Positions 9,226-63,440 of a DNA stretch of 64,000 bases are shown here, piece by piece. Every line of letters starts with the position of its first letter. The first letter of the stretch is position 1. This DNA comes from Negaprion brevirostris. Its lineage: Eukaryota. The position numbers and the translations under genes were made by a program. The notes below the pieces were generated by a model, which saw nothing but the letters and a program-made list of their open reading frames with translations, ran no database searches and was not told the origin of the DNA. The DNA lies in the NCBI GenBank assembly GCA_030324005.1, contig JARDVH010000106.1, forward strand, positions 50,570,895 to 50,634,894, given 5' to 3'.

Positions 9226-9229
9226 TAAT

Positions 9230-10700
9230 CAGCATCTTGTATTCTTGCTCTTGTATTCTATGCCCTGATTAATAAAGCCCAGGATACTATATGCTTTATT
9301 AACGGCTATCTTCAATTGTCTTGTTGCCTTTCAATGATTTATGCACTTATACATCCAGGTCCCTCTGCTCCTGCACCCCATTAAGAATTCTACCCCTTAT
9401 GTTGTATTGTCCATCCATGTCTTTCCAACCCAAATGCATTATCTCACACTTGTTCTCATTGAGCTTTATCTTCTACTTATCTGCCCACTCCACCAATTTC
9501 ACTTTGTCCCTTAGAAGTTCTCCTCAGTTTAAATTACTTGAGTTTTGTATCACCTGCAAACTTTGAAATAGTCCCCTGCACACCAAGATCTAAATCATTA
9601 ATCCAAATCAAGAAAAGCAAGGAACCGAATACTGACCCCTCGAAACTCCACAACAAACCTTCCTCCAGCCTGAAAAACATCCACTAACCTCCGTTGTGTC
9701 CTGTCACTCAGCCAATTTTGCATCAATGTTGTTGCTGTTCCTTTTATTTCATGAGCTTTAACTGCTCAAGTCTGTTGACACTTTATCAAATGCCTTGTCA
9801 AAGTCTGCATATACCATTTCAACAGCTTTACCCTTATAATCAAACTGCTGTTACCTGACAAAACTCAGGACAGTTAAACACAATTAATTCTTTATAAATC
9901 TATGATGCCTTTCCTTAATTCATCACATCTGTCCAAATGAATTAATTTTGTCCCAAATGATCATTTCTGGAAGTTTCCCCATCTCAAAAACTTTAAACTG
10001 ACTGACCTGCAGTTGCTGGACTCATCTCTTCGTGCTTCTTTGAACAAAGGTGCAGCATTTGTAATTCTCATAATACCTGACACCACCCCAAACTCTAAGG
10101 GAAACAGGAAAATCACAGCTAGTCCTACGCATTTTCCACTTCAACTTTCTTCCGTATTCTAAGATGCATTTCATGTGATCCTGGTGTCTTATTAACTTTT
10201 TAAATACAGACAACCTATCCAATTCAACCACCTTATCAATTTTAAATGTTGCAAGTGTCTGGACTATTTCATCTTTCAACCATGCTTTGCAACGGCATGT
10301 TCTTCCCAGGTACAGACAGATGCAAAGTATTCATTTAATTGCTCAGCTATGCCCTCCACCCCCACGTGTAAATTTCTTGTCTCTGATCAACCCCACTCCT
10401 TTTACCACCATTTTACTACTTATATGCCTACAGAAGACTTTAGGATCCCCTTTATTATTGGATCCAGTCTTTCTGCATGCTCCCTCTTTGCTTATCTTTC
10501 TTGCTTTTTCATTGATCCTGGTTGTATTACCCACATGACATTTGTCATAAGCACACTTTTTCTTTACCAGAATCTCATCTGTTTCATCATCCCGGATTTG
10601 TTTTGTCATATTTCTGGAAGCTGCCCAAACACAATTTCTTTAAAAAGTGGCCCATTGTTCAGTTATCATTTTGCTTACCAACCTTCTTTGTTAATAAGTT
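9230..10700 (-). mobile_element. Older CR1 LINE fragment
   Basis: Minus-strand ORF with KGDPKVFCRHISSKMVVKGVGLIRD (CR1 pre-RT) plus decayed RT motifs. May be continuous with the minus-strand CR1 piece at ~7240-7434 (ALERVQKRFTRLVP). Confidence 0.75.
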
Positions 10701-11869: not shown

Positions 11870-12161
11870 ACTGAAAGGATTCTTTCAGCTCATCAAGCTT
11901 GTACCGACAACAATCCCATCCAGGGCCTATCCGTGTAACCCCACATACTAATTCTGCTAATCCTCCTGATACCAAGGGACAATTTAGCGTGGCCAATCCA
12001 CCTAATCTGTGCACCTTTGGATTGTAGGAGGAAACCAGGGATCTCAAAGTAAACTACAGATACGGGACAAATGTGCAAACTCCACAGAGTCACAGTCAAC
12101 TGAACCCGGGTCCCTGGCATTGAGAGGCAGCAGTGCTAACTACTGTGTCACGATGCCACCC
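11870..12161 (-). mobile_element. HE1-type V-SINE
   Basis: Minus strand head gtagttagcactgctgcctctcaatgccagggacccgggttc, V-domain, ggattggccacgctaaattgtccctt. Confidence 0.85.
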
Positions 12162-18326: not shown

Positions 18327-18800
18327 TAACATAAGAAATAGGAGCAGGAGTAGGCCATCTAGCCCTTCGAGCCTGCCCCGCCATTCAATAAGATCATGGC
18401 NNNNNNNNNNNNNNNNNNNNNNNNNNNNNNNNNNNNNNNNNNNNNNNNNNNNNNNNNNNNNNNNNNNNNNNNNNNNNNNNNNNNNNNNNNNNNNNNNNNN
18501 AGATCATGGCTGATCTGAAGTGGATCAGTTCCACTTTCTCACTTTCTCCCCATAACCCTTAATTCCCCTGTCTATCAAAAACCTATCTACCCGTGACTTA
18601 AATATATTTAGTGAGGAAGCCTCCACCACTTCAACGGGCAAAAAATTCCAGAGATTCACCACCCTTTGAGTGAAGTTGTTCCTCCACAATTCCAATCCAA
18701 GCTCCCCGCCCCACCCTTCAAGGCTGATTCCTCTAGTCCTGCTATCCTTTCTAAGTGGGAAGAATCTCTCTACCTCTACCCTAATCATCCCCTTCACCCT
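18327..18800 (-). mobile_element. Young CR1 3' end (with gap)
   Basis: taacataagaaataggagcaggagtaggccatctagcccttcgagcctgccccgccattcaataagatc; ORF RVVNLWNFLPVEVVEASSLNIFKSRVDRFL. Confidence 0.85.
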
Positions 18801-18959: not shown

Positions 18960-20012
18960 ATGCAATGGCAATAAACCTCCACAAAACAAAGATAGTCATT
19001 GGTTTCAGGAAGTGTAATGGAGACAATGCCTCTGTCTATGTCATCTGATTTGATTTGTCACATGTATTAGTATACAGTGAAAAGCATACCGTTCATAGAG
19101 AAGGAAATGAGAGCGCACAATGGGGACAAAATAGAAATGATTGAAAGCTTCAAGTTTTTCAGTGTCCAGAACAAAAACAACCTGTTCTGGTCCCTCCATG
19201 TTGATGCTACAGTTAAGTCCATCAAACGCTTCTACTTTCTCAGGAGACTAAGAAAATTTGGCATGTCCGTTACAACTCTCACCAACTTTTACAGATACAC
19301 CAGAAGAAGCATTCTTTCTGGTTGTATCACAGCTTGGTATCACTCCTGCTCTGTCCAAGACTACAGCGAGAGACTACAGCATCTTCCTTAGACAACAGTA
19401 GTGCCAGAGGATTGGAGAATTGAAAATGTTCCCCTTGTTCCAAAAGATTAGTATTTTAAACTTAAATCAGAGTAACTATGTGGGAATGAAAGTTGAGTTA
19501 GCTGAAGTCAAAAGATGTGCCGGCTAGGTTGAATGGCCATGAGAAATTGACGCTAGTGTCAGAGAATAGCGGGGTAAACGTGTGGAGTTACAGGAATGGG
19601 GCCTGGGTGGGATTGTGGTCAATGCAGACTCAATGGGCCAAATGGCCTTCTTCTGCACTGGAGGGATTCTATTCTATGAAGTGAAACGGGATACTATGCT
19701 CGGAGATTGGTCAATAGAGAAGCAGCGGCAGCCATTTAAGGCACTGGCCTAGTGTATTACTGCTAGACTATTATTCCAGAAACTCAGCTAATGTGCATTC
19801 TTTCTGGTTGTCTCACAGCTTGGTGTGGCTTCTGCTCTGGCCAAGACTGCAAGAAACTACAAAGGTTTGTGAACAAAGCCCAGTCAATCACACAAACCAG
19901 CCTCCCCATTCATTGGCTCTGTCTACACTTCCCACTGCCTCGGAAAAGCAGCCAGCATAATCAAGGATCCCATGCACCCCAGACATTTTCTCTTCCACCT
20001 TCTTCCTTTGGG
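18960..20012 (+). mobile_element. Rex1/Babar-type LINE RT fragments, interrupted by CR1 and SINE pieces
   Basis: IEMIESFKFFSVQ..NNLFWSLHVDATVK..RFYFLRRLRKFGM..TLTNFYR...SILSGCITAWY, then ILSGCLTAW...KKLQRFVNKAQSIT. Confidence 0.75.
19510..19678 (+). mobile_element. HE1-type V-SINE 3' half
   Basis: aaagatgtgc..ggttgaatggccatg...gggccaaatggccttcttctgcactggagggattctattctatg. Confidence 0.7.
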
Positions 20013-21640: not shown

Positions 21641-21916
21641 AGACATGGTGGTTAGCACTGTTGCCTCTCTGTGCCAGGGCCCCGGGTTCGATTCCCAGCT
21701 GAAGTCTACACATTCTCCCCATGTCTGTGTGGGTTTCCTCCAGGTGCTCCAGATTCCCCAGTCCAAAAGACGTGCTGGTTAGGTGCATTGGCCATGCTAA
21801 AATTTTCCCTCAGTATACCTGAACAGGTGCCAGAATGTGGCAAAAATAGAAGATTTTCACAGTAATGTAATTGCAGTGTTAATGCAAGCCTACTTGTGAT
21901 ACTAATAAACTTTAAA
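21641..21916 (+). mobile_element. V-SINE, actaataaa-tail subfamily
   Basis: gtggttagcactgttgcctc (A box), ccgggttcgattccc (B box), V-domain, tail gcaagcctacttgtgatactaataaacttt. Confidence 0.85.
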
Positions 21917-23239
21917 TATTAACAAGCGCTTAAGGTATTTGTAGTGATCATTTTGAATAATTGCCTATGCTTTAAAGAATTGCACAGCACAAGAGGTTCC
22001 ATGGCAACTTTAGGCCAGTGTATTCCCAACAAAAAAAACTGGATTATATTTACTTTTCTTCCAAGCAAATGTTAAACATGCACTTATCTATGGCTAAACT
22101 ACTAATCAGAGTTGACAAATTTAGCTAATCTTAAACTCCCAGATGAAATACATTCCCCTGCCACTAACTATAGATCTAACAGAGGGTGCATTGTGAAATG
22201 GTCTATAATTAGACGAAACCTCTATTTTAGAGAATTCAAACAAACCATGCTTTACTGACATTGAAAAACAATGGACATCTTGCATGTGCCTGGAATTAAG
22301 ACTTTTTGCTGTGTCTTTCAGCAAGATCATTTGCACTATAACTTGTTGATAGTGAGAACTGATAACAAGGGCAATTAGACATCTGGAACCAACAAGGTGA
22401 AACCAATGAGATTACAGGATTCAGAAACAAAGGAACCATGGGGAGGAAGAGGCGGGAGAACAGAATCAAAATCAGTTATTAAAAAAAACGGAGCAGGAAA
22501 GAGGGATTAGATTGACAGGAGAGAGAGAAAAATGCAAGCAAAAATAAAATTCCCTATATTCCAGGCTGAGACTCAGCAGTTTAAATCTTTCCCTTTCAGG
22601 GAACAGTAAAGATCGAATAACATGATTACACACCTAAAAGGGAACTTAGGCTGTAATAATTAAGCTTTAATTTATTGTAGTGAGTTTGATGGGCAATTAA
22701 TGCACAAATTCAGAAAGGGCTTAAAAATTACTAGGGAGGCAGATGACATGCTGTTTGTGCAAGGCAAAAGTTGGATGGACCATCGTGTGCTGGAGAGTCA
22801 CAACTCATTGTGCATCTATTCTTCCTCTGAACATGTTGGCTAATTTGGTATTAATGTCATGCATCATGAACTTAATTTTCTTTACAGNNNNNTGACTTTA
22901 TAAATCTGCTGTGTCCATCTCAGTATTTGATTAATATGTTAAACGTGTCTGCTAAGTCAGAAGTGTCACCCAGTTAGATCCTAGCTAATCTGTTAATTGC
23001 AACTTCCATTTATTCAGCACTTTTAATTTAACCATTTCACAAAGGGAGGAGAGTTGAGATTGAGACAGTCTTGTTTTCCAATAGCTTGTGATTAATCTCC
23101 TTTTTCAAACAGCTGGGTCAAAGTGATTGGTTTTGAGAAGTCGTTCAAAGTCCATGAAGGAGAGGTACACAGGTTTGGAAGGCCATCCTGCAGAACAGTC
23201 AAGATGACTAAAGACATTGCTACCCATGAAGGAAAAAGA

Positions 23240-27276: not shown

Positions 27277-27584
27277 GCAGCACGGTGGCAGTGTTTAGCA
27301 CTGCTGCCTCACAGCGCCAAGGACCCAAATTCAACCCCGGCCTTGGGTGACTGTGTGGAGTTTGCACATTCTCCCCGTGTCTGCATGGGTTTCCTCTGGG
27401 TGCACCCACTTCCTCCCACATTCCAAGATATGTGGGTTAGATTGATTAGCCATGCTAAATTGACCGTGTCAGGAGAATTAGGAGGGTAAGTATGTGGGGT
27501 TATGAGGATAGGACCTGGGTAGGATTGTTGTCAGTGCTGACATGATGGGCCAAATGGCCTCCTTCTGCAATACAGATTCTATGA
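27277..27584 (+). mobile_element. HE1-type V-SINE, near full length
   Basis: gcagcacggtggcagtgtttagcactgctgcctcacagcgcc...ggagtttgcacattctccccgtgtctgc...gattctatg. Confidence 0.88.
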
Positions 27585-31815: not shown

Positions 31816-32756
31816 TTGTTTCAGTGAACACCTAAGAACATAAGAAATAGGAGCAGGAGTAGGCCATCTAGCCCTTCGAGCCTGCCCCGCCATTCAATAA
31901 GATCANNNNNNNNNNNNNNNNNNNNNNNNNNNNNNNNNNNNNNNNNNNNNNNNNNNNNNNNNNNNNNNNNNNNNNNNNNNNNNNNNNNNNNNNNNNNNNN
32001 NNNNNAGTCCCCCCTCTCATCCTCTAAGGGTCCAACGTTCACCCTAGCCAGCCTCTTCCTTTTTATATATTTATAAAAACACCCCATTCAATGAGCAAGG
32101 ACCAACACTAAAATCATGACAATAACGTTCAATGTGAACTATTAAAAATTCTAAAATCTACCCACTAATAAATTCCTCACATCTGGCAAAATACAATGTT
32201 AGGATTCATGAATCCAAATCTCAGACCTTAGCCAGTCTTCCACAGTTTCAGCTCTAACTATAGATTTATTGAAAACACCCCAAGCATATGGAGCTATGGC
32301 AAATTGGCTGAAAATTCCCACAATTTATTTTGACCTGTCTATTGACAAGCAGTTAAGCCTTTGCCTTACTGCTTCTAGCATAAAGCAGGCTGTTAAAGCA
32401 CAAATATAGCACAATTGCTGACTTAGAAAATTGAATGCGGGGATCATTTTGCAGCACTTTTGGATAGGTAGAGCAGCAGCAAAATTCAGCGTTCAAAAAG
32501 ATATCTTCAATGACATTGCTCATGGAAATTGGAAAGCTTCTGCACCAAAAGCACAGCCTTTGAGCTGAACTCGATCCTCAAGGAATAAATTCAATGTAAC
32601 TCTTATGGCTAATTTGAATTAGCTTTTGAAAAGTATCTCATGAAATTGTGGCTGAAAAAGTATATAGATCAATTAAATGAAAAAGCTGAATGACTGAAAC
32701 ACTGGACAATCTGACTGGTTTGGTTTTTACCCTCCCAGGTGATAGATTTTCTTCTG

Positions 32757-38153: not shown

Positions 38154-40334
38154 CTGAAATTAACACAAATGGAAAGAATTAAGGAACAAGATTTCAAGCT
38201 AACTTTTAAAATAGCATTCAAACAAGCACAAATAACTAAAACATGACAAGCAACAGTTTAATTATGGAACTCAAGTTTGGGATGAGGCAGGAGGAATACA
38301 GGCTGCACAAGGGGATGGAGCAGTTGAGATGTGGGGCATGGGAGGATAGGCCAAAGAAGATTGGAATGCAGTGTGATGTGGCAAAGGCAGCTGCAAGAGC
38401 AAGTGGGAGGAGGGAGGAAGGAATGAGGAAAGAGGGAGTGAGGAGAGGTGACCTGCTGAAGGGAGGGGAAGGAGACGTGAGCGAGTTGGGGGGCAGGGTG
38501 CGTGATGAAATAAGAAATCTCATAGGCATACTTCCATTTATTTTGTGTTTTCCAAGAACCTGATTTATAGGAAACTTTATATTTCCAACTACTAGAGATT
38601 AGACACTATTCATAATACATTGTTTTACCATATGGTGCATGTGTTCTTTTGCTCTTTTATCCAACGTAAATAACCCTATATTTATCCACAATACATTTCG
38701 TAGTTTAATAGTTAGTTAAAATTTGTTCTTTCCTTCCTACATTTCAATCTGTGTCTGTAAGCATTGATACCCAAAATCCACATTATTATAAAAACTTGTC
38801 TGAAACATTCATAAAAAATAGGAGTAAGTCATTTGGCCCTTCAAATCTGCTGTCATTTATTATGATCAAGGCTGATCATCAAATTCAATACTCTGATTCT
38901 GCCTTCACTCTGTATCCCTTGGTCCATTTAGCCCCAAGAGCTATATCTAGTTGTTTCTTGAAATCAAACAACATTTTGGCCTCAACTGCTTTCTGTGGTA
39001 GCAGATTCCACAGATTCACCACTCTCTGGCTGAAGAAATTTCTCCTCACTTCTGTCCTAAAAAGGTTTATCCCTTATACTCAAACTATGACTGCTACTTC
39101 TGGACTCCCCTACTATCAGGAACATTATTTTTGAATCTATCCTGTCAAGTAGGCACTTATAAAAAAAACCTAACAGGATTAGACAGGGTAGATTCAGAAA
39201 GAACATTAACCTCTCACTCTTCCAAGCTCCAAATGAATAAAATCCTAACCAACTTAGTCTCTCCTCATATGACAGTCCTGCCATCTCAGGAATCATTCTG
39301 GTAAACCTTCACTTCGTTCCTCCATAGCAAAAGCATCCTTTCTCAGATAAGAAAGCTAAATCTGCACACAATACTCCAGGTGTAGTGTCTCAGCAATACA
39401 TTACACAATTGCAGCAATTCTTATACTCAAATTCTCTCGCTATGAAGGCCAATGTATTATTTGCCTTCTTTACTGCCTGTTGTAACTGTGCACTTACTTT
39501 CAGTGATTGATGAGGACACCAAGGTCTCACTGACTACCCCCCTCTCTCAATTTACAGCCTTTCAAATAATAATTTGCCTTCCTATTTTTGCTACCGAAGT
39601 GGATACCCTTACATTTGTCCACATCATACTAAATTTGCCATGCAGATGCCCACTCACTCAGCCTGTCCAAACCATGCTTCAGCATCTCTACATCCTCCAA
39701 AGCTCTCATCCTTCCACCCAAATTTGTATCAGCTGCTAATTTGGGGATAATATATTGATGACTTGGATGAGGGCACTAAATGTCTGTGAAGAGTTGGGGT
39801 CCCAGCACAGACCCCCTGCTGCCACTAGTCACTGCCTGCCAATCAGAAAAAGGCCCATTTGCTCCAACTCTTCACTTCCTGTCTGCTAACCAGCTCTCAA
39901 TCCATCTCAAGACACTACCCACAGTCCCATGCACTTTAACATTACAGTTATTTGCCACGTAAAACCTTGTCGAAAGTCGAACTAAACTACATCAAATAGT
40001 TCTCCCTAGTCAACTCTACTAGTTACATCCTCAAAGAATTCCAGTAGAATTGTCAAGCAAGATTTCCCTTTTGTAAATCCATGCTGACTTGTCAGATTAT
40101 ACACTGCTTTCCAAATGCTGAGAAATGAAATATTCAATAACGGATTATACCAACTTCGAGTATTGATGTTCTCACTAGTCTTTAGTTACCCATTTTCTCT
40201 CCACCACCCTTTTTGAATAGTGGGCTTACATCAATTATCCTCCAATCTGTTGGAACTATTCCAGAAGCAAAAGAATTTTGGAAAGTGACCACCAGCAGAC
40301 CAACTATTTCAAGGGCCACTTCCTTAAGTGCCCA

Positions 40335-40596
40335 ATGCAGGAGGCGGCCACCTGGTCCATTGAGTCTGCACCAACCCTAATCCTATCCAGGCCTAATTCC
40401 TGTAACCCCACATGTTTACCTTGTTAATCCCTTGACACCAGTGTCAATTTAGCACCAATCAACCTAACCTGCACATCTGTGGACTGTAGGTAGAAAATCG
40501 GAGCACCTGGAGGAAATCCATGCAGACATGGGAAGAATGTGCAAATTCCACACAGTGACCCGAGGCACTGTGAGGTGCACTGCGAACCACTGTCCC
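40335..40596 (-). mobile_element. HE1-type V-SINE nested in CR1
   Basis: ggagcacctggaggaaatccatgcagacatgggaagaatgtgcaaattccacacagtgacc (V-domain, reverse strand); CR1 sequence on both sides. Confidence 0.8.
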
Positions 40597-40734
40597 GTTG
40601 CTTTCCCCAAAACTAATACTGATTTCCTTCAGCTCCTCATTAAAACTTGTATTTCTCAGAATTTCTGATACATTATTTGTGTCTTCCTTTGTGAAGACAG
40701 AAGCCAAGTACAAATTTAGATGGCTGATGATGAT

Positions 40735-40986
40735 GGCGGTTGGTGACTAGTGGAGTGCCCCAGGGGTCGGTGCTGGGGCCTCAGCTATTTACCATTTATA
40801 TAGATGATCTNNNNNNNNNNNNNNNNNNNNNNNNNNNNNNNNNNNNNNNNNNNNNNNNNNNNNNNNNNNNNNNNNNNNNNNNNNNNNNNNNNNNNNNNNN
40901 NNNNNNNNNNCTTATTGAATGGCGGGGCAGGCTCGAAGGGCTGGATGGCCTACTCCTGCTCCTATTTCTTATGTTCTTACGTTCTT
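40735..40986 (+). mobile_element. Young CR1 (centre collapsed into gap)
   Basis: [22 protein letters not shown] before the gap; canonical 3' tail after it. Confidence 0.85.
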
Positions 40987-42020
40987 AATTGTTCCCAACA
41001 ATGAATTCCCCTATTTATGACAGTGAGGGGCCTACATTCATTTTTGTCAACCTTCTCTTTACATACAGTCAGTTATTATGTTACCTGCCAGCTTACTTTC
41101 ATGCTCGATTTTTCCTTTTCTTAATCAATCCCTTGCTCATCTTTGCTGAATTTTAAACTACTCCCAATCCTCAGGTCTATTGTTTTTTCTTGCCAATTTG
41201 TATGTTTCTTCTTTGAATCTAATACTACCTCTAAGTTCCCTTGTAAGCTATGGTTTGGCCACAGTTCCCTTTTCATTCTTGCGCCAAATAGAAATAAAAC
41301 AACTTTTGAAGTTTACCCATTACCTGTCCAACAATCGATAATTATATAGCACCCCATTATCTACCACACATATTTCTGGACTTGTCCATTATATAATCAT
41401 GAGCTTGTTTTCATGTTGGGGAAATTACAAGGATTTCCAAAGCCATAACAAAACGTTGGTGGCTGCCAGAACGAAGCACAGCCAGTTCAAAATCGTTCCA
41501 ACTGTGACATCTTGTGAATTAATTTACTGTATTCTTGTTTTAAACTATGCACTAACCTATTTTCTTCAACAATTATTTAAAAACTCAAAAGTTTGCTTTA
41601 CAATTTCAACAAAGTTTTCTATTAGCCCAACGGGGTGCTGACAAAACGTGACAAAAAAGTAGGGTAATTGAGCCAAGACTTTGGACAGATGCTCCTAGTA
41701 TCTGTCCACTGCAACTTCAGGGGGTTTCCAAGCAACAATATTAAGAGGGATGAAAATTATTTCAAATAGCTGGAGATAAAGAGAAGCTGATGACATTAAC
41801 GAGGAAGCTTAAATAAGTTGTCAAAAACTGCCATTTCTGAACCTTTTTACAGTCCATTGCTTCATTAATAGAAACTGTACAGACTTAATGGAAGATTTAA
41901 ACTTAATTTCTTAGGATCAGAATTTCACTAAAGACCTTATACAAACGTAAAAGTCAACATTTCCAGACTAGCTCTTTTGACCAAAAACCATGAAGTTCAC
42001 TTTTACTTTAATATGTACAG

Positions 42021-42364
42021 CAGGGTGAGCAACCATACCAGATTTTTAAGAGATGGTCCAATAATCAAAGCAATTGTCTTATGTTCCCACGATGTTGCTT
42101 TTCCCATTTCAGAGCTTAACTTTACAGCTATCCCGTATACACCGGCACATTCATACTGTTCCTAGCTGCCTGGCCTGATTATTTGTCCAGTAATACCCCC
42201 GGCGGCACTTTGCTCTTGCACACTCCCATGCAGCCAACACAGTCATGGAATTGTCAGCACATCCATGGACCACCAAGTTCGCTAGAAACCCTTGCCCCAT
42301 TGTGTGGTTCCCCCGCACCAAACCACCCCTTAATTTTTTTTCCCCGACCAGAGTTGGTCACCTT
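42021..42364. mobile_element. Possible non-autonomous hAT (Blackjack-like) element
   Basis: Imperfect TIRs cagggtgagcaac / gttggtcacctta (10/13), resembling TAGGGTGACCA termini; no 8-bp TSD visible. Confidence 0.4.
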
Positions 42365-43627
42365 AAAAAACTGTGTCAAGTTAATGCAATATAGGCTGTT
42401 GGATTTATGAATACAAATTCAAAAGCTGGCATTTTACATTTTATGTAAAATATCGTTGAGGGGTCATATGACTTTTCTTCCCTGTCAATTTACATGGAAC
42501 TGCTCAAGGCCCTGAAGAGCTAATCTTCACGTCTGGACAAAACATTCAAATGCAAAATGAACTATCGGAACATTTCATCAAGTCATCATTAAAATGCAAC
42601 AGATCTTTACTCCGGATAATTACTGCCCTTATCCAAATAATTAAAAGAAATTGGTTATAATACGGCTTGCAGACTTTTTGGCTTCCAAGTGGAATTTCAA
42701 AGAATGGGTGTGAAAAATGATATGCGAGTGGGTGAAACTCAAACCCTGTTGTGCGTCAATGGCTTAGGTACCAGAAAACATTCGAGGATAATGGCCAGAA
42801 ACACACAGGTCACATAATAGAAACCAGGTTTTCAGACGAGGACTTTAATGAGACATTTTTGAAACAAAAGGGGAAGAAAGATGCAGATCAGTGAAGGAAG
42901 AGGTCCTTGCATAAAGAATCATCAACAGGCAGAAAATTTAGGCTGGCCTTTTTTGTTCTGTTTGTGGAACGAAATCAAGTTTCACTACAGGAGCTTTTTT
43001 GCAGCTTGCCTGGAGTAAAGCAAGAAGAAACCTCCCACTACAAGCAGTGAAACACAGTAAATTCATCTTCCTTAACCTCCAGGCTCTATTTTGTCAGTGG
43101 ATCATATAAGGAACTACTGGCTTTCAACATTTCAAGATTTCATCTTGGAATCTTCAAGGAAAGTTCAGAATGAAAGCGTGATAATATCTCAAGATGGATT
43201 AATAAAGTTCAGATGGGGGAAGAAAAAAAAAAATCAAGTTTTACCGAACAGCCTGATTTGCATGGCAAGTAATGTCATGCAGACCTGCCAGGGTTACTTG
43301 AACTGTAGGCTTCAAGTGATAAAAATAGGAGATGGAACATCACCAAAAAGAAATGGACAACAAAGCACCACAGATAAATGAGTGAAAATGGAGATTAGTC
43401 CTTTTGCCTCAGCATATTGGTTTCCTGGCAGTTACATATTACTCATTGAGCATCTAGGGTAAATAACAGCAAAATCTTAGACACAAGGCCTAGCCTATGT
43501 TAAATTAACCGATGTTAGCCAGGACATCATTGGGCCATTCAATTGTCCGAGAGTCCCACTTATCATTTTAGCACCTATGCAAGAAACAGTTCTGAATTTC
43601 AGGTAAGGAGAAAAGTTGGTTCAGCTT

Positions 43628-44183
43628 TGCTGCAAAAAGTTAGGGTGCACGGAGTTGGGGGTAAGGTGTTAGCAAGAATAGAGGACTGGTTGTCTAATGG
43701 GAAAGAGAGAGTTGGAATCAATGGGTGCTATTCTGGTTGGCAGTTGGTGACTAGCGGAGTGCCACAGGGATCAATGCTGGGGCCTCGACTGTTTATCATT
43801 TACATAGATGATCTGGTGGGAGAGGGCTGAGTGTAGGGTAACGAAATTTGCTGATGACAAGATGATGAGTTGAAAAGTAAATTGCATGGAAGGTGCGGAA
43901 ATTGCTATAGCTCTAGCTCGTTAGAGGGGTCAGTTTTTGTACAAAGCGTGCAGGAAGGTTTTTTGACCCAGTATGTNNNNNNNNNNNNNNNNNNNNNNNN
44001 NNNNNNNNNNNNNNNNNNNNNNNNNNNNNNNNNNNNNNNNNNNNNNNNNNNNNNNNNNNNNNNNNNNNNNNNNNNNCGGGAAAGTGGAACTGATCCACTT
44101 CAGATCAGCCATGATCTTGTTGAATGGCGGGGCAGGCTCGAAGGGCTAGATGGGCTACTCCTGCTCCTATTTCTTATGTTCTT
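43628..44183 (+). mobile_element. CR1 fragments (RT + 3' tail, gapped)
   Basis: [19 protein letters not shown]...[23 protein letters not shown]...KFADD; tail at 44077-44183. Confidence 0.85.
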
Positions 44184-45007
44184 AGATGCCCCTGAAGCTG
44201 CCTAGTTTGTCAAGATTCAGGAGTGCATAATGTCTATTAAGCAAGATCCAAGAAGCTCAACAGCCACTTTGTCAATCGCCTGCAAAGAGCAGAAAAATAT
44301 GGAAAGAATAAGAAGTTTTTAGGCCCAATGAAACAGTTCATATAAAAAATGTGACATCTTCACCAATCGGAGAATACGTACTCTGATTTGTAACAATAAC
44401 TTGGGGGGAGGGGTGGAGCAGGTCAATGTAGCAATGCTTCAACAAAATATAGCTAAGGTGAAGCAAAGTTCAAAAATAACAATGACACAGAAAAGCCTTT
44501 CAAAAACCATTCCCACCACATAAACACCATCACTTCAAACTAAACATCTGAAATAAAGCATTTTCTTTCATAGAACATTGCGATGTCCTACTTGGCACAT
44601 TTTGTTGCTGTTAGCATGCAAGTTTGCACTGCTAGCAGAGTAATGCCAATCTGGAACAGAAGGTCATTTTCCCTTAAATCAGAGGCTTATCTGAATTTTC
44701 CACCCTTGACCAAATTTTTGATAAACGAACCCATCAAACTAATTGACAAGTACTGCAATGTCAGGAAATTCCTGTCTGATTAAGTTCACCAGTTTTGTCT
44801 TTTGCCTACTTATGTGACCCTAAAATGTAAAAAAAAAGACTAGCAGTTTTATTACAGTATTACTCTACAAAACTAACATTCTCACATACTTTTAATTGAA
44901 AAATTTAAGTAATCAAATATGAATGCTTATTGAGATGTGATTTCTATTTAATTTTTTTACTTTGTCTTTTGATTTTCTCTACCTATTCTAATTATTTACA
45001 CCATGCC

Positions 45008-45294
45008 TTTTTTTAAAAATGTTTATTCTAATTCAATCCAATCACGTCCAATTCAGGTGGGACATTCCCGATCCAAGCTGACAAGACAGGGCTCTCACCT
45101 CTATGATCTACATGATCCAAGTTGATTGGAGTAGCACAGCTCCTCCTCCAAGGTTTGATCTCATTTGCATCTTAGCCATATGGCCAAGATGCCGCTTTTA
45201 AAAATTGCTTCAAATGAAGCTGAAATGTAACCTAAATGACTTCAACCAAGCACAGCATGTTGATACTACGCTTGATCTTAGCCAAAAGGCTGAG
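45008..45294 (-). mobile_element. Putative U2-headed SINE-like element
   Basis: U2 head, a second degenerate U2 5' copy at 45169-45189, a unique body, then AATAAA and an A-rich end. No clear target-site duplication. Confidence 0.5.
45262..45294 (-). pseudogene. U2 snRNA 5' fragment (U2 nt 8-40)
   Basis: Minus strand CTCAGCCTTTTGGCTAAGATCAAGCGTAGTATC vs U2 CTCGGCCTTTTGGCTAAGATCAAGTGTAGTATC (31/33), including the branch-point-pairing GTAGTA. No Sm site or 3' half, so not a functional U2 gene. Confidence 0.88.
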
Positions 45295-47106
45295 GCCTAA
45301 TCTTTAGTTCTGTAAAGAATTATATTCAAATTGCTTTAGCCATTTTTCTCATTTTCTTCACTCCAAATATTCACTTTGGAGAATGAAACAACACTTTAAA
45401 AACTAACGTTCAAACAGTAATCTCAGGTTCACAGATCATGCAATATAGTGGTAGAAGAATTGAGAAATTACAGTAAACAGATGCAATGTCAGGCAGAATA
45501 GAATTAGTATTATCCAATTTAGGATGACTTGGTTACAAATATTTGTGCTGCAAATAGAAAACTGCCCCATTCACTCATGTTAATATTTTTCATGTGGATG
45601 AACTCAAACAAAGGGTCATGGTGCAAGAGGTGCTGCCTGCATTCTGATCATCTTGTAGGAATGGCCAAACTATGCACAATATTCTCAGGACTTCCTCAGC
45701 CCAATAAAGTTTCCCAGGTTATGACCAGATTTATTACAAGTAATTACAAAAATCAACTTGTTCTAGAAAGGTCAACTGTCTTCAGTACTTCTTATCTTCT
45801 GAATGTACAAGTTAACAACCTGAGATGCAAGAACAACAATACTGTGCTTTCATAGAAACCATGCATCAGTGTAGTTTCCTTTAGCTACCCGACGACATAC
45901 TTTCTTGGATCACCCCCTTCTTCTGAAGGGTACTGCAGGAGGGTGAATTCAACATAAAAACTTTCACTTGTGAAAAGCATTAAATAACAATCAGAAACAA
46001 TTATGTCAGTTCAAGATGTTAAAGAACAGAAATAAGAATGGGAAAGACTTGAATTGTGTTAAGTGACAAAATGTGGTTGATTAAGGGAATGAACATATAA
46101 ATGCGTACGGAAACCAGAACTAATAGCAATAACTGCAGTAAATGCAAAACAAACTTGACTTGCATGTTAAAGCAACCACTTTGGACTAGAAGAGGGTATT
46201 TTCTAAGTGGTGAAAAACTCAACAATGGAGGCCCAAAATAACTTGGGGGTACGTTATCTGCATAGATCATAGAAAGATACAAAAAACTAAAAGGTCAACA
46301 GAAAGCTGGCCATTACATCTAGAAGACTGAAGTACAAGCAGAAGTGGAAGTCATGCTTCAAGAATACCAAGCTTTGGTTAGAACATACTTTTAGTACTGA
46401 GAGCATTTCAGAAGTGAAATTAGGAAACAGCTGCACATGCTAGATATTTGGAACAATCTTCCTCAAATGGCAATTGATGTTAGATCAACTGATAGTTTTA
46501 AATTGAAGATTGATAGGTAATATGTCAAACCCAAAAGGTATTAAGTAAGGGCTGTGGGACAAAGTTGGATGTGGAATTAGGTTGCAGGTCAGCCACTGAA
46601 TATCAAAACAGACTCATCTACTCATTCCTTTTTCCTGTAAAAACCTTTTAATACACAATGGATGTAAATAAATGAAAAAAGGAGAGTGTTCAAGCAGGAC
46701 AATGACAAAGAATTCAAGTCAAACAACACCAAAGTTTCATGCATTCATGGATAGGGGCAAAAGCAATACTAATGTTCTGTGCTTTGATATTTAGTAAACT
46801 CTTAAATGTCTGTTGGCTCATGAATTACACCATCCTGTGTTTGAATAATGTTCAATTCTACATAAAAGCTTAAACACATCCACATTGTCACTAAGACCAT
46901 CTATCCCCACCTCCATAATATCACCAACTCCATCCTTGCCTCAGCTTTTCTTCCTTGTTTTTGGTACCTTTAAACTTCACATTCCAATGCTCTTCTGACT
47001 GGCTTCACATCTTCCATCCCCCCAAGCCTTAAGTAAATTCAAAGTTCTGTTGCCCAGATGCTAACTCTCACCAAGGTCTGTTCAGCCCTGCATTCAATGA
47101 TCTACA

Positions 47107-47302
47107 AAACAGAAAATGCTGGAAAATCTCAGCAGGTCTGATAACATGACAGCATCTATGAAGAGAGTAGAATAACGTTTCAAGTCTGGGTGTCCATGTG
47201 TCAGATTGGATAAAGCCAGCTCTATTCTCTCTCCACAGGTGCTGTCAGACCAGCATTTTCTGTTTTGGTTCAGATTCTAGCATCCACAGTAATTTGCTTT
47301 CA
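47107..47302. mobile_element. Palindromic Penelope-terminus element, second subtype
   Basis: aaaacagaaaatgctgg ... ccagcattttctgtttt inverted ends; degenerate minus-strand CTGAcac...GAAACGTT. Related relics at ~24585-24900, 36320-36425 and 49060-49145. Confidence 0.6.
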
Positions 47303-47327
47303 TTTCAATGACCTACACTGGTTCCCA

Positions 47328-47660
47328 TAAGAACATAAGAAATAGGAGCAGGAGTAGGCCATCCAGCCCTTCGAGCGTGCCCCGCCATTCAATAAGATCA
47401 TGGCTGATCTGTCGTGGCTCAGTTCCACACTCCCGCCCTCTCCCCATAACCCTTNNNNNNNNNNNNNNNNNNNNNNNNNNNNNNNNNNNNNNNNNNNNNN
47501 NNNNNNNNNNNNNNNNNNNNNNNNNNNNNNNNNNNNNNNNNNNNNNNNNNNNNNCTTGCCAACATTAAATTCCATTTGCCAGTTCCTGGCTCATTCGCCC
47601 AGCCTATCTAGATCCTTCTGCAGACTCTCCACACCCTCCGCGCAATTTGCCGTTCCACAA
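47328..47660 (-). mobile_element. Young CR1 (gapped)
   Basis: taagaacataagaaataggagcaggagtaggccatccagcccttcgag tail; MEFNVGK on the far side of the gap. Confidence 0.85.
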
Positions 47661-48049
47661 ATCTTATTGAACAATGCCTCAATTTTAAATTTCCCATTCT
47701 TGTTTTCAGATCACTCCATGGCTTTACTGCGTCCCACTTCAGAAATCTTCAGCCCAACCAGCTTTTAAGATTCCTGCACTCCAATTCTGTCCTCATGTGC
47801 ATCCCCAATTTTAATCATTCCACCAACTACAATTGTGCCTTCCACTGCCAAAGCCCCAAGCACCGAAGTTCCCACCAGCCCCTCCATCCTCCCCAGCCCA
47901 GCCAAATGTCTCCGCTCTCTTTCTTCCTTTAATGCACTCCCTAAAATCCAGCTCGCTGACCAAGCTTTTCGTCATCTGCACTCATAACTTGTAAAGTGGC
48001 TCAACGTTAAATTGCATGTGATAACATCTCAGTGAAGTATTCATGGAAT

Positions 48050-48945
48050 GGTAGGTCGTTGGGGAGAATTATAGAACAAAGAGACCTAGGGGTAGAGAGA
48101 TCATAGCTCCTTGAAAGTTGAGTCACCGGTGGACAGAATGGTGAAGGCAGCATTCAGTATGCTTAGTTTCATTGGTCAGAACACTGACCAGTTGGGACAT
48201 CTTGCTGAAGCTGTACAAGACATTGGCAAGGCCACACTCAGAAAACTGTGTTCTGGTCACCCTATTGTAGAAAAGGGCATTAAACCAGAAAGAGTGCAGA
48301 AAAGATTTACTAGGATGCTATAAGGACTTGATGGTTTGAGTTATAAGGAGAGGCTGGATAGACTGGAACTTTTTCCTCTGGAGTGTAGGAGGCTTAAGGG
48401 TTATTTTATAGACCTCTGTAAGATCATGAGGGGCATAAATCAGTTAGATGGTCAACATCTTTTCCCAAAGGTAAGGGAATCTAAAACTAGAGGGCAAAGG
48501 TTTGAGATGAGAGGGGAGATACACAAAAGGGTCCAGAGGGGCAATTTTTTCAGAGAGTGGTGAGTGTCTGGAACAAGCTGTTAGAGGTAGCAGTAGATGT
48601 GGATACAATTTTGTCTTTTAAAAAACGTTTAGACAGTTACGTGGGCAAGATGGCTATACAGAGATATGGGCCAAACGTGGGCAATTGGGACTAGCTTAGG
48701 TGGATAAAAAAAGGGCACAGTAAGTAGTCTCACAGCAACAGGTTAAAGTCCAACAGGTTTATTTGGTAGCATGAGCTTTTGGAGTGCTGCTCCTTCATCA
48801 NNNNNNNNNNCTTTAACCTGGTGTTGAGAGACTATTTGCTGTGCCTAATCCAGTCCAATGCTGGCAACTCCACATCAAAAAAAAAAAGTGTGGCATGGAC
48901 AAGTTGGGCTGAAGGGCCTGTTTCCAAGCTGTAAACTTTTATGAC
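48050..48945 (+). mobile_element. CR1 LINE 3' region
   Basis: ERVQKRFTRML, SYKERLDRLELFPLECRRLKG, ESKTRGQRF; tail gggctgaagggcctgtttcc. Confidence 0.88.
48714..48876. mobile_element. Palindromic Penelope-terminus-derived element (gapped centre) inside a CR1 3' end
   Basis: Arms ggcacagtaagtagtctcacagcaacaggttaaag and ctttaacctggtgttgagagactatttgctgtgcc are reverse complements; degenerate hammerhead core on the minus strand at ~48770-48800. Confidence 0.7.
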
Positions 48946-49373
48946 TGTGTTGTATTACATTATTAGACACTATAAAAACAAAAGTTTGTTGTCAGCAAAT
49001 AAGAAATTTAAAATAGAAACACACAATACTGTAAGTGTGTTGGTCCATCGTAGCAGAGCAAAGTTTGCATTTTGGGTCTCATAAAAGATCATATGCCTGA
49101 AAAGTGCTGCCTTTATAATGCTGACTGAGCAGCAATTTCAGTCTTTTTTTGAAAAGAGCAGAAGTACATTTGCATAAATAAACTGGTGTTACCTATTCAC
49201 ATACTATGTTGAACATCGACAGCATACACAACCACACAAGTTAATGTGCAAGAAAAGTTTCATTAAGTTTGCTTATCCGGTCATGCATCAATTGTCATTA
49301 GCAATGAAGAGTAGGCATTAAAACCCAAGCAACACATCCCTTACCCTCATGAAATGTAGTAAAGACCACAAAC

Positions 49374-53954: not shown

Positions 53955-54225
53955 TTCAATGCAAAGTTTATTTATTAGTATCACAATTAGGTTTACAGTA
54001 ACACTGCAATGAAGTTACTGTGAAAATCCCCTAATCACCACATTCCGGTGACACTGATGGCCAATGCACCTAACCAGCATGTCTTTTGGACTGTGGGAGG
54101 AAATCAGAGCACCTGGAGGAAACCCACGCAGGCACGGGAAGAAACGTGCAGACACCGCACAGTGACCCGAGCCAGGAACTGAACATGGGTCCCTGGCTGT
54201 GAGGCAGCAGTACTAACCATGCCAC
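53955..54225 (-). mobile_element. V-SINE, actaataaa-tail subfamily
   Basis: Reverse complement of the 21641 copy: aaagtttatttattagtatcac...gagcacctggaggaaacccacgca...tgaggcagcagtactaacc. Confidence 0.85.
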
Positions 54226-55205
54226 CCCCAGAATTTTATAGCTACAATCTTGCTTCAGTGGAATACAGGCTGAAATCAGGGGGTCAGACTAAAGCAGAAC
54301 ACAAGACAGGGAATAGGAAGAGACTCTGGTCAAGAAAACCCATCCTTCCAAACCATACACATTTCCTTCAATTTTTGAGCTTTTTTTGGCTTTTAAGTGC
54401 AAGCACAGGCAAACAATCTTTGTTCAAAATGATTCACATTCATTTAAAATAATTAACCTAGATCTTTGCTCAATCTTCAACGAAAACAAGTTGAATTTGG
54501 CTGTCTTTTATGAAGTCCTAGAATAACCCTTGCTTACTTTCTCTGATCTCTCCAATGTATTAATTTCCTTTTGAATGGGGAGGGTTGGGTTCCAATCTTG
54601 CTTTGCAGGTGTTAAAATTATGCATTTCAACATAATTCAAATGTTTATCCAATGGTCAAGCTGAAAGAACTTAAACTAAAACCAGTTGACAAAGTTAGAT
54701 TGAAAATGTTGGAGATAATCTTAGGCATCCTCTCTCCAAAAACACACCTGACAGCTATTAAGTAAAGATGTCAAGGACATGGAGCAAAGGCAAATAAATG
54801 GAGTTACAGTACAGAGTTGGCTCACGGTGCTGAAATGGCCTACTGTTCATTTTCATGCACAAATTTAGGTAACTTCTACAGCAGTTTAGACATTGCATGA
54901 ATGCAAACTACTCATTGTTTAAGTTCAGGGTCCAAACTAATTTTTAGAAGGGCAATTTAACATTTTTTCCTTGCACAAAGTGGAGAAATAAATCTGTCTA
55001 CAGCAAGCTTATGAATTTTTTTCCTAATTTAGAATAAGAGGAACTTATCAAGACTGATCGTGGCAGCGCATATCCAATAAATTTTAAACTGTCTTGCCTT
55101 ATCTCTCATATATGCAGTAAACTGCACAAGACACAACAATATTTAACTTGTGCTCTTGCAATACAATGTATAAAAATACCAAAATCTTAAGATAGCATAC
55201 TATAC

Positions 55206-58195: not shown

Positions 58196-60589
58196 GTTCT
58201 AGGCAGGGGCCATCACAAGTCAAGAACTATCTCAATATGCACTTTACAAAATGAGTTCACTCAACAGTAATGAGTACCAATTACCCTGAACATTTTCTTC
58301 AGTCTTACCAAGTTAGGAATCAAATCTGGAACCTCAAATCAGTACAATTCAAGTACCTTACCCTTGCAAAGGGATGAAACACTAGGTCATAGCTTCTCAA
58401 AAAGATCCAATATAAATCTTGAACTATAACTGTATTAAACAATGCAAAGTTCAATGCTAGCCTGTAAATCATAACAACAATGTTTCAGTTCCAATCAAAA
58501 ACATGTAAGTTGATATTCTGGTGTACAAAACAATTACAAATCATTTTCTGTTACCATTTAGCAAATCAAAATGTGTATCCCCATACTGCATCACTGGTAC
58601 AATATAATATTTCAGGATGCAAAATTTGGGCTATGGTAGTGAGAAGTCTATATAGGTGATTCAATGAAATTGAATAAAATCTAGACAACGCAGAGTTTTA
58701 GCATCTCAGATCTAGATTTCATTATTGCAGAATGATTGATCAGCAAAATCAATACAGAGGGAAATAGTAAGAAGTTTATTTGAAAATAAGAGTGTGGACG
58801 ACTTTTGTTCAAACCTGAAAAGTGATTCCACTGCACAAATTACACACCATTCTGCAAGAAACTGAAGGTTTTCCCTCAGAATATTTGGGTGTGAAATTAG
58901 AAAACAACACATTGGTGCAGTATTTACACTTACTTAAGGCTGAAGTTTATTTAGTAGGGGGATTTTAAAACTCAACCTGGCCAAAGCTGTGCTAGCCAGA
59001 GATATTTAATGCTGCAAAAAGCAAAATAAATTTAATCTCTCCAAATACTAGAGTTCTTCATATCAAAATCAGTACAATATTCCCTCTTCCCCCACAGGAG
59101 GGCACAATAAACTACACACCACATATATATGCATATTCTGCTACGTGAGAGATCAGTCAGAATGAACTTCCGTAACATATGATCAACGGTACAATCTCCC
59201 ACATTAATCCTGTGAAACTTCCTAGTAATCAGAAACACTCAATAATGTAATTTGGCCAACCTTCAAACACAACATTTATGTTTTTGATATACAACACTGC
59301 ATTTGTTCAAAACGTCTGAAAAATCCTAATGAATACATCTACAGGATTATATCTTAGTTATTAATTGTAGCCTTCTTATTGCACAGACTACAGTTCTGCA
59401 ATCGTACAATATACTCCCCCATACAAACCATTTTCTCGTAGCTAGGTGTCACTAAATTCAAATATTTTCAAATTCAATGACAGCAACAAAAAGTGCTTTG
59501 TCTAGTATCAGTGTCTTGTAATAGCAATGCTAGCATGGATTTTAGCCCCGAGAGGCATTCCTGCGATGGGTAGAAGAGGGGTGGCCTCGCTGCTTTGAGA
59601 TCAGGAAATCCAGAATAGATTTCCCTAAATATCCAGCAATTTTTAATTCCAGGACATCTTAAAATTCTTTTTCTTCACCTGCAGGCAGCCTGAATGACTG
59701 GCTACAGATCAGTCAGGAGATGGAAGTCGATAGTACAAGGCCACAACGGAGAAGAGCAGGAAGTTCTTGTGGTGGTTGTTTGGGGCAGGAATGGGATCAC
59801 ATGCAATCATTGGTGGGGGAAGCATGTTAATTTACTGGTAAGCTTATTGGACCTGAAGGAAATATTCCTCCTCTTGGCCCACAAGCAGTGCTACAGATGT
59901 AATTATCTCAAATTCAGTCCTTCTCATTCTCTTTTGTTCTCTATGCTTACTTACCCCTGGAGAACCTAACCAATGAGAGTCAAAAATAGTGTCATTATTA
60001 AAATGAAGGTATGCTGCTTCTTATAATGTTTGAATGTTAGACCCATGTTACTTCTTGTGAGCAGATTAATTGCTTGTCCCTCCCCTCATCCCATCTCCAT
60101 GAAAACCAAGTGTGGGGGGGTTGGGGGGGTTAAGATTCAGTCCATTATTCTCAAATTAAGTATCCAACAAACCAAAAAAATTATGTGCTTACAGTTACTG
60201 CTATTACACTGTGACTTGCAGATTTTTTTTTAAGGCGATGTACACAATTTCGTAATTTGTTTATAAAGCTTATTTTAATATATGTTCAGTATGCTGTGGG
60301 GTACCTAGATGCAATAATAAAGTCCAAGATCAGAACAGGCAATTGGAATCAACTGAAGTTTATTCTACGAATGAATCCAACTATATCTGAACTCCAGTTC
60401 CACTTCCTCCAATGTTGCATCTGGAAATTGCCCAAACCGAAATAGCTCCGAAAGTATATTTTTCCCATTCATGTACTCTGCTCCGCTTTTGCGTTATCAC
60501 CTGGGATACCTTACCTGCACTGTTCAATTTTTAATAAACTTGGAAAAAAAGTTCCCATTTAATTGTCTTATCATCAGCCTGTATGATGA

Positions 60590-60872
60590 TAATGCGCGGA
60601 GGGTGTGGAAAGTCTGCACAGGGATCTGGATAGGCTGAGCACACGGGCGAGGACCTGGCAGATGGAGTATAATGTTAGCAAGTGTGAGGTTATCCACTTT
60701 GGCAGAAATAATAGTAGGAGNNNNNNNNNNNNNNNNNNNNNNNNNNNNNNNNNNNNNNNNNNNNNNNNNNNNNNNNNNNNNNNNNNNNNNNNNNNNNNNN
60801 NNNNNNNNNNNNNNNNNNNNCAGGCTCGAAGGGCTAGATGGCCTACTCCTGCTCCTATTTCTTATCTTCTTA
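60590..60872 (+). mobile_element. Young CR1 (gapped)
   Basis: ESLHRDLDRLSTRARTWQMEYNVSKCEVIHFGRNN, then gap, then 3' tail. Confidence 0.85.
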
Positions 60873-62928: not shown

Positions 62929-63284
62929 AGTGGGGTGACACAGGGATCACGGCTGGAGCCTCTACTATTTACAATCTATATTAATAACCTAGATGAAGTG
63001 ACTGATTGTTGTGGCCAAATTTGCTGACAAGAAGAATAGTCAGATGCCAAGCTGCAAAGAGGATATAAGAGTAAAGTCAGTAGACAAAAATTGGGAGATG
63101 GAGTATAATGTGGAACATGGGGTTATCCACTTTGACAGAAAGAACAGAAAAGCAGAGTATTATTTAAGAGAGGCACTACAGAATGTTGCAGTAGAGAGAC
63201 CTGTGTGTTCTTGTACATAACCACAAAATTAGTTTGCAGGCAGAGTGAATAATTAGGACAGCAAATTGAATGCTTAAATTTTTA

Positions 63285-63440
63285 AAGTTTCATTAATCAA
63301 TCACAAGTAGGCTTACGTTAATACTGCAAAGAAGTGACAGTGCAAGTCCCCTAGTTGCCACACACCAATGCCTGATCAGGTACACTGGAGGGAGAATTTA
63401 GCATGGCCAATGCACTTAACCAGCACGTCTTTTAGACTAT
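63285..63440 (-). mobile_element. V-SINE 3' part nested in CR1
   Basis: tcacaagtaggcttacgttaatactgc...gaatttagcatggccaatgcacttaaccagcacgtctttt. Confidence 0.7.

What the first reader, a model, noticed from the sequence alone, without database searches (positions are those of the whole stretch)
45008..45294. SINE-like element headed by two tandem U2 snRNA 5' fragments
Seen: the minus strand reads U2 nt 8-40 (31/33), then a ~70 nt spacer, then a second U2-like piece TCTTGGCCATATGGCTAAGAT (18/21 to U2 nt 7-27) that runs into an octamer ATGCAAAT (45163-45170). A ~130 nt unique body follows, ending in AATAAA and an A-rich tract. Known: snRNA-headed SINEs (SINEU) are described from crocodilians, and the Keno (Tx1) and Utopia retrotransposons insert into U2 genes close to nt 37-40, where homology stops here. 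Inference: this is an independent U2-derived SINE family in a cartilaginous fish, or a mobilised U2/Keno-type chimeric transcript. It lies sense to the TAB3 pre-mRNA, so the intron carries U2 stem I plus the GUAGUA branch-pairing motif. I cannot exclude that the family is already catalogued.
Basis: partly seen in the sequence, partly recalled or inferred. Interest (0 to 1): 0.75.

Follow-up and report, generated by a model that had tools for sequence, protein, structure and literature searches.

The report
U2-headed retroposed RNA in shark intron
A shark gene intron holds a roughly 290-base insert that begins with a piece of the spliceosomal U2 RNA whose branch-point-reading sequence is folded away by a matching antisense arm, most likely an old copy of a U2-headed jumping element, though only this one copy could be examined.

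Summary
The minus strand carries U2 nt 8-40 (31/33; Rfam U2 34.5 bits, below the gathering score of 46; window-wide E 0.003), a second U2 stem-I piece (18/21), AATAAA and a 7-A tract. It forms a GC-richer island in a TAB3 intron of a galeomorph shark, sense to the gene. This strand-specific helix buries GUAGUA and displaces stem I. It suggests that head and body evolved together as an RNA, which argues against a one-off truncated pseudogene. Not shown: any second copy (none in the window; no eukaryotic genome, Repbase or Dfam was available), a target-site duplication, a ribozyme or an snRNA promoter. U2 does not resume downstream, so this is not a Keno/Utopia insertion into a U2 gene. The octamer is unremarkable. 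Best reading: a dead copy of a SINEU-like, Tx1/Keno-mobilised retroposon whose source was transcribed from a U2 gene (about 0.55). Family status is untested.

The parts
45262..45294 (-). U2 snRNA-derived head, U2 nt 8-40 (stem I, U6-pairing region, branch-point recognition sequence at 45269-45264); 31/33
   Evidence: cmscan; human U2 as printed
45237..45258 (-). Antisense arm that pairs with U2 nt 18-39 (45284-45263): a 15-bp unbroken helix, a 2x2 purine loop and 5 more pairs; 14 Watson-Crick, 6 G-U, 2 mismatches
45207..45220 (-). 5-bp hairpin
   Evidence: pair probability 0.98
45198..45206 (-). Single-stranded U tract between two hairpins, at element position 96-104, about where U2 has its Sm site; lacks the closing G of an Sm site
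   Evidence: aligned to the Sm region by cmscan; unpaired probability 0.93-1.0; meaning not shown
45167..45192 (-). Second, more diverged U2 stem-I piece (U2 nt 7-27, 18/21), extended into an 11-bp hairpin
45121..45151 (-). Weak hairpin, possibly a diverged U2 stem-loop III (24 of 31 columns to human U2 nt 117-146, by eye); suggestive only
   Evidence: by eye; not found by cmscan; pair probability up to 0.46
45028..45120 (-). Unique, unstructured 3' body; putative partner-LINE tail (inferred)
   Evidence: folds no better than shuffles; no homologue in the window or through two reading frames in the protein sets
45008..45027 (-). AATAAA, a T5 run and an A7 tract; putative 3' end
38154..49373 (-). 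Host TAB3 intron (GT...AG); element about 4.1 kb from the donor and 6.9 kb from the acceptor
   Evidence: tblastn exons; splice sites

Best explanation
This is one old, dead copy of a short non-autonomous retroposon with a U2-derived 5' end (SINEU-like, or a short internally deleted derivative of a Keno/Tx1-type element). Shown: the U2 head, the second stem-I piece, the predicted fold-back helix, the polyA signal, the short A tract and the intron location. Inferred mechanism: (1) the source element sat in, or was fused to, a U2 gene near nt 38-40 and was transcribed from the upstream U2 promoter, since U2 has no internal one; (2) its own 5' sequence evolved to pair with U2 nt 18-39, hiding the branch-point and U6-pairing sequences so that the transcript is not handled as U2 snRNA; (3) the U2 head was added or refreshed more than once, leaving an older inner copy, as in SINEU-1 and in R2 5' duplications; (4) the polyadenylated RNA was copied in trans by an L1/Tx1-type reverse transcriptase into an A/T-rich spot of the TAB3 intron, lost U2 nt 1-7 by 5' truncation, and has decayed since. 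It probably does nothing for TAB3.
For: GC step: core 0.44 against flanks of 0.31 and 0.21; 3 of 2040 overlapping tiles are as sharp, and the edges match the U2 head and the AATAAA/A tract. Fold of 45301-45008: z -3.81, 0 of 200 shuffles; 45301-45110: z -4.08. The five 100-nt windows starting at 45320-45200 give z -3.1 to -4.3 on the minus strand and -2.6 to +0.4 on the plus strand. The 15-bp helix was reached by 1 of 20000 shuffles of the downstream 30 nt, and only 2 loci in the window have a hairpin that long. The 5' arm is 21/22 U2 while the 3' arm has 8 departures, 6 of them G-U and none A-C; neutral decay of a perfect inverted copy gave 6 or more G-U in 2004 of 200000 runs and an intact 15-bp run in 506 of 200000. 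The two U2 pieces show opposite decay of the same CpG (U2 nt 10-11), as expected of methylated genomic copies (sequence; inference). Precedents: repeated U2-head addition, missing 5' ends and U2-headed Tx1 families (PMC4494074); pairing of element sequence with upstream target-gene sequence and decaying tandem duplicates of it in R2 (PMC3774820); short internally deleted R2 derivatives (PMC3414825 abstract).
Against: No second copy: blastn word 7, nhmmer of 9 segments and self-blast coverage of 0 over the element, while 7149 bases of the window are repeated. No TSD: the best candidate, 9/10, is matched by 5 of 21 AT-rich control tiles, and nothing sits at the ends. The tail is only A7. The hairpin was found after the fact, and the sense strand of this intron is G+T-rich, which favours G-U pairs. 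There is no covariation evidence from a single sequence. Duplication of head unit A into unit B beyond stem I is not significant (304 of 3000 shuffles; 1024 of 3190 window tiles). No partner LINE was identified, and Keno in sharks was not found in the papers searched.
Confidence: 0.55

Rival explanations
1. A highly diverged U2 paralogue (variant snRNA-like RNA of about 180 nt), or a retrocopy of one: U2 5' end, a new helix over the branch-point sequence, a hairpin, an Sm-like U tract, then stem-loops.
For: The structured zone is U2-sized, and structure stops near 45120. cmscan prefers a 1-192 global alignment at 34.5 bits over 23.2 bits for the truncated head alone. The U tract lies at about the Sm position and is unpaired between hairpins. 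45151-45121 resembles stem-loop III by eye. Human U2 itself has a BPRS-masking conformation, SLIId (10.1101/2021.08.01.454689).
Against: U2 nt 1-7 and 41-46 are absent and the stem IV loop is unmatched. Without the head, cmscan finds only the second stem I, not Sm, III or IV. No PSE-like, upstream octamer or 3'-box match with recalled consensus motifs. The U tract lacks the closing G. A polyA signal and A tract follow.
Confidence: 0.15
2. A one-off chimera: a 3'-truncated U2 cDNA joined by template switch to an unrelated RNA, or a fold-back inverted duplication at insertion. The hairpin is a by-product and there is no family.
For: Single copy in the window. Template-switch snRNA chimeras and 3'-truncated snRNA retrocopies are well known (PMC4494074 discussion; PMC5322556 abstract), and they break in single-stranded regions.
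Against: It needs two separate U2 pieces plus an antisense arm whose departures are nearly all G-U on one strand while the sense arm stays 21/22 U2. No TSD next to the truncation point. Seven 5' nt are missing. Tailless forms were found outside mammals only in anole among the vertebrates surveyed; the main text does not mention sharks.
Confidence: 0.2
3. A fragment of another repeat class that captured or targets U2 sequence: a U2-derived satellite or a non-autonomous DNA transposon.
For: Several hairpins. U2-derived satellites exist in Ciona (PMC4640811). DNA transposons targeting small-RNA genes exist (PMC3706591, search listing only).
Against: No terminal inverted repeats at the ends and no tandem array; polarised 5' head and 3' AATAAA/A tract.
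Confidence: 0.1

Closest known systems
SINEU-1 / SINEU-3 of crocodilians (Kojima 2015, PMC4494074; read parts 1-4 of 5, figures and supplements not seen)
   Same: Short (under 500 nt), non-coding, U2-derived 5' head not starting at nt 1, more than one snRNA-derived piece, internal oligo-T runs, A-rich 3' end; SINEU-3 joins U2 5' 32 nt to a later U2 segment, as the possible stem-III piece would here.
   Different: Shark rather than crocodilian (the paper found none outside crocodilians); copy number unknown; no Mariner-N4 target evident; an antisense arm over the branch-point sequence is not described in the text read; sequence relationship to SINEU bodies not testable.
Keno (Tx1 clade) and Utopia, U2-targeting non-LTR retrotransposons (PMC4640811; sections 6 and 8, passages, S1 Fig part 8 of 8 plus search rows, S4 Fig part 1 of 2)
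   Same: U2 homology ends within 2 nt of their site (after nt 38). The 3' end has AATAAA a few bases before the terminus, as in reptile and echinoderm Utopia ends (low-complexity likeness only).
   Different: No U2 nt 39 onward downstream, no U2 promoter upstream, no ORF (longest stop-free frames 29-50 aa); about 290 nt rather than several kb.
R2 5' ends and R2 SIDEs (PMC3774820 abstract and passages; PMC3414825 abstract)
   Same: Works-like analogy: element sequence pairs with upstream target-gene sequence, tandem target duplicates decay, short non-autonomous derivatives exist.
   Different: No HDV-like or hammerhead fold found by descriptor search; target is U2, not 28S; analogy only.
Tailless U2 retropseudogenes and snRNA template-switch chimeras (PMC5322556 passages, sections 16 and 19)
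   Same: U2 5' fragment ending in the single-stranded branch-point region.
   Different: Lacks 7 nt at the 5' end, no flanking TSD, followed by a complementary arm and a second U2 piece.
U2 spliceosomal RNA (Rfam RF00004)
   Same: nt 8-40 nearly intact; a U tract at about the Sm position.
   Different: Below the gathering score; nt 1-7, nt 41-46, stem IIa and the stem IV loop are missing or unmatched; no promoter or 3' box.

Membership tests
SINEU | 5' head derived from U1 or U2 snRNA | tested here: met
SINEU | Short (under 500 nt) and non-coding | tested here: met
   about 290 nt; longest stop-free frame 50 aa; no credible protein hit for two frames
SINEU | 3' polyA tail | tested here: inconclusive
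   AATAAA plus only A7; the pairing occurs at 3 places in the window
SINEU | Many dispersed copies sharing the non-snRNA body | not testable with these tools
   none in 64 kb; no eukaryotic genome collection available
SINEU | Target-site duplication or truncation at insertion | tested here: inconclusive
   no TSD above chance; old SINEU copies also rarely show one; no empty-site orthologue available
SINEU | Sequence similarity to SINEU-1/2/3 consensus bodies and Mariner-N4 target | not testable with these tools
   supplement not held; no Repbase or Dfam
SINEU | Crocodilian distribution as described | tested here: not met
   host is a galeomorph shark
Keno/Utopia insertion in a U2 gene | Upstream U2 ends at nt 38 | tested here: inconclusive
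   match runs to nt 40; site
Keno/Utopia insertion in a U2 gene | U2 resumes at nt 39 after the 3' end | tested here: not met
   flank after 45008 is not U2 (cmscan)
Keno/Utopia insertion in a U2 gene | Encodes endonuclease and reverse transcriptase | tested here: not met
   no ORF
Functional U2 snRNA gene (RF00004) | Reaches Rfam gathering score 46 | tested here: not met
   34.5 bits
Functional U2 snRNA gene (RF00004) | PSE/DSE upstream and 3' box downstream | tested here: not met
   scan with recalled consensus motifs found none
Functional U2 snRNA gene (RF00004) | Sm site flanked by stem-loops | tested here: inconclusive
   U tract at the right place but without the closing G
Tailless U2 retropseudogene | Near-complete 5' end (at most 5 nt unmatched) | tested here: not met
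   7 nt unmatched; criterion
Tailless U2 retropseudogene | TSD directly flanking the truncated fragment | tested here: not met
HDV-like or hammerhead 5' ribozyme (R2-type) | Double pseudoknot with catalytic C, or hammerhead core | tested here: not met
   0 matches, strict or relaxed, on either strand (own descriptor, not benchmarked on known ribozymes); no Rfam ribozyme hit

The most novel reading that the evidence does not exclude
Sharks carry their own family of U2-headed retroposons, independent of crocodilian SINEU, whose RNA has evolved a dedicated antisense arm that locks away the U2 branch-point and U6-pairing sequences. This would explain how an element can borrow the U2 promoter without entering or poisoning the spliceosome, and would make the open question of how snRNA-headed SINEs are transcribed directly testable. 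A bolder variant: the 180-nt structured part is an Sm-bound, U2-derived RNA with a switchable branch-point helix.
Probability: 0.3. Interest if true: 0.72.

Novelty: new variant of a known kind. Interest (0 to 1): 0.45.

Why it matters
SINEU was described only from crocodilians, and how it is transcribed was left as an open question (PMC4494074). A shark family would show that snRNA-headed retroposons arose more than once. The anti-branch-point hairpin offers a concrete, testable reason why a U2-headed transcript is tolerated. If the locus is single-copy it is a curiosity of little weight. No report of a U2-headed SINE in cartilaginous fish turned up in the searches (listings and abstracts; one search was swamped by 'SINEUP'). 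Repbase, Dfam and subscription journals were not searchable, so prior cataloguing is not excluded.

Tried and rejected
Other copies in the window: none by blastn, nhmmer of 9 segments or self-blast. A 13-nt match to the head at 8354-8366 is taken as chance (about one such match expected; it lies in what looks like CR1 RT-coding sequence, recalled).

Family members through spurious translations: phmmer of the 47-aa minus frame against 1.84 billion proteins gave 1 hit, at 32% identity summed over 9 stretches, read as a repeat-protein artefact and left unexamined. The 50-aa plus frame gave no candidate. Both tests are weak.

TSD: none above chance. Head-unit duplication beyond stem I: not significant. 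HDV and hammerhead ribozymes: none. snRNA promoter and 3' box: none. tRNA head: none in the window. Octamer as enhancer: rejected (12 in the window, internal).

C/D-box guide on the plus strand: weak snoRNA hits at E 1-9.8 reflect antisense-to-U2 sequence; the strand is wrong for intron processing. Splicing role for GUAGUA in TAB3: paired in the ensemble and 6.9 kb from the acceptor; the exon absent from one shorter isoform checked (P0014) is the one at 26099-26004, not the adjacent exon.

Left unchecked: any eukaryotic genome, Repbase and Dfam (not available); metagenome and viral contigs (closed); prokaryotic genomes; a Pfam scan of the flanks; a computed significance for the stem-III likeness (no stored U2 sequence, so by eye only, rough E 0.1-0.2 by hand). 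The SINEU supplement and the figures showing SINEU heads and Keno/Utopia 5' junctions could not be seen and may bear on novelty; bioRxiv supplements were closed.

Full report
Setting. The window holds most of TAB3 on the minus strand. tblastn with named shark proteins places coding exons near 56724-55200, 52364-52203, 49467-49374, 38153-38062, 26099-26004 and 16778-16632. Of 12 chondrichthyan proteins compared with the large exon, Mustelus asterias was closest (98.7% over 476 aa), then Cetorhinus 97.8, Carcharodon 97.4, Scyliorhinus 97.2-97.4, Chiloscyllium 95.6, Heptranchias 95.4, Heterodontus 95.2, batoids 91.6-93.6 and Callorhinchus 90.1. The host is therefore a galeomorph shark, probably carcharhiniform. 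The finding lies in the GT-AG intron 49373-38154, sense to the pre-mRNA.

Observation. It is real. cmscan gives a U2 hit at 45301-45120, 34.5 bits, E 0.0031 across the whole window and all 4227 families, but below the gathering score of 46. U2 nt 8-40 map to 45294-45262 at 31/33; nt 1-7 and 41-46 are absent. The second piece is found on its own as model nt 7-26 at 45189-45170, but weakly (14.1 bits, E 0.94). It is a palindrome, yet its 9-nt arm occurs only twice in the window, both times here. The two pieces carry opposite transitions at the same U2 CpG (nt 10-11), which fits decay of methylated genomic copies (inference). The octamer is one of 12 in the window and overlaps the palindrome. AATAAA at 45027 is followed by T5 and A7; that pairing occurs at 3 places in the window.

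What was missed. The 'spacer' is not neutral. Its first part (45258-45237) is complementary to U2 nt 18-39 of the head: an unbroken 15-bp helix closed by a 4-nt loop, a 2x2 purine loop and 5 more pairs, in all 14 Watson-Crick, 6 G-U and 2 mismatches. Pair probabilities are 0.78-1.0, also in an 800-nt context; GUAGUA is at most 0.1 unpaired and the register I checked for stem I has probability 0. The helix is strand-specific (-14.5 against -5.5 kcal/mol). It was reached by 1 of 20000 shuffles of the downstream 30 nt, and one other locus in the window has a hairpin as long. The whole element folds at z -3.81 and its first 192 nt at z -4.08, 0 of 200 shuffles each; windows starting at 45170 or further 3' fold no better than shuffles.

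The two arms differ in a telling way: the sense arm is 21/22 U2, while the antisense arm has 8 departures and no A-C pair. A simple neutral-decay model gave 6 or more G-U in 2004 of 200000 runs. Caveats: the test is after the fact, assumes 60% transitions, and the sense strand is G+T-rich. One sequence gives no covariation. I read this as moderate evidence that head and arm were selected together as RNA in a source element or gene.

Tests that failed. There is no second copy in the window by three methods. At SINEU-like copy numbers (about 1,000-8,000) in a gigabase genome (size recalled), well under one further copy is expected in 62 kb, so this neither supports nor refutes a family. No TSD. 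No significant duplication of the head unit beyond stem I. No ribozyme, promoter or 3' box. No ORF and no credible protein-level trace.

Comparison. SINEU elements are short, have U1 or U2 heads that often lack the snRNA 5' end, gained heads repeatedly, end in polyA, are probably moved by Keno-related Tx1-Mar elements (one with a U2 head), and were found only in crocodilians; their transcription is unresolved (PMC4494074). The shark element has this build, but membership cannot be claimed. Keno and Utopia insert after U2 nt 38 and are followed by U2 nt 39 onward (PMC4640811; PMC6136364 passages give 37 nt); that downstream U2 is absent here, so this is not an in-gene insertion. R2 supplies the mechanistic analogy: element sequence pairing with upstream target sequence, and tandem target duplicates that decay (PMC3774820), plus short deleted derivatives (PMC3414825 abstract). 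The paper on shark and chimaera SINEs that I searched describes tRNA-headed families and has no occurrence of 'snRNA' in its main text (PMC5499810 passages).

Rival worth keeping. The structured part is U2-sized, has an unpaired U tract near the Sm position, and 45151-45121 matches human U2 nt 117-146 at 24 of 31 columns by eye (sequence printed in 10.1101/2021.08.01.454689). cmscan does not recover that piece, so it is suggestive only. If real, it fits either a SINEU-3-like internally deleted U2 as the second unit or a diverged U2 paralogue.

Verdict. A genuine U2-derived chimeric insert, most likely a dead copy of a U2-headed non-autonomous retroposon (0.55); one-off chimera 0.2; variant-U2 RNA or its retrocopy 0.15; other repeat class 0.1. 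It works like SINEU or an R2 SIDE; it is not shown to be a member of either or to be a family at all. Novelty: new variant of a known kind, provisional on copy number and on Repbase/Dfam.

Noticed in passing
window 5935-6570: A self-inverted element of about 640 bp (arms 72% identical, short N gap inside); its centre hits miRNA models below their gathering scores. MITE-like or an inverted duplication.
   Followed up: partly
window 18328-18400, 31829-31905, 40911-40982, 44077-44188, 47328-47435, 60821-60872: Ends of a young repeat (92-100% identical) sit at the edges of 100-N gaps: probably a collapsed, recently active retroposon family.
   Followed up: no
window 44754-44765 and 45482-45493: An exact 12-nt direct repeat, 728 nt apart, brackets the element (D6). 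It may be chance or the TSD of a larger insert; no A tail precedes the downstream copy.
   Followed up: no
window 45070-45081 and 45114-45125: A 12-nt repeat (11/12) at 44-nt spacing inside the 3' body; an extended alignment was not significant (193 of 3000 shuffles).
   Followed up: yes
window 7615-8130 and 8832-9272: Stop-free frames that look like decayed CR1-type LINE reverse-transcriptase sequence (family assignment recalled, not tested).
   Followed up: no
window 11903-12145, 19506-19672, 21649-21920, 27284-27582, 40332-40567, 53963-54226, 63277-63438: An older multi-copy repeat of about 250 bp (69-80% identity), probably the common shark tRNA-derived SINE (label recalled).
   Followed up: no
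window about 59445-59490, minus strand: A 16-bp AT-rich hairpin, the only one in the window longer than the U2 fold-back.
   Followed up: no
window 26099-26004: This 96-nt TAB3 exon has no match in a 705-aa skate isoform (P0014) while present in 736-aa isoforms: probably an alternative exon.
   Followed up: partly
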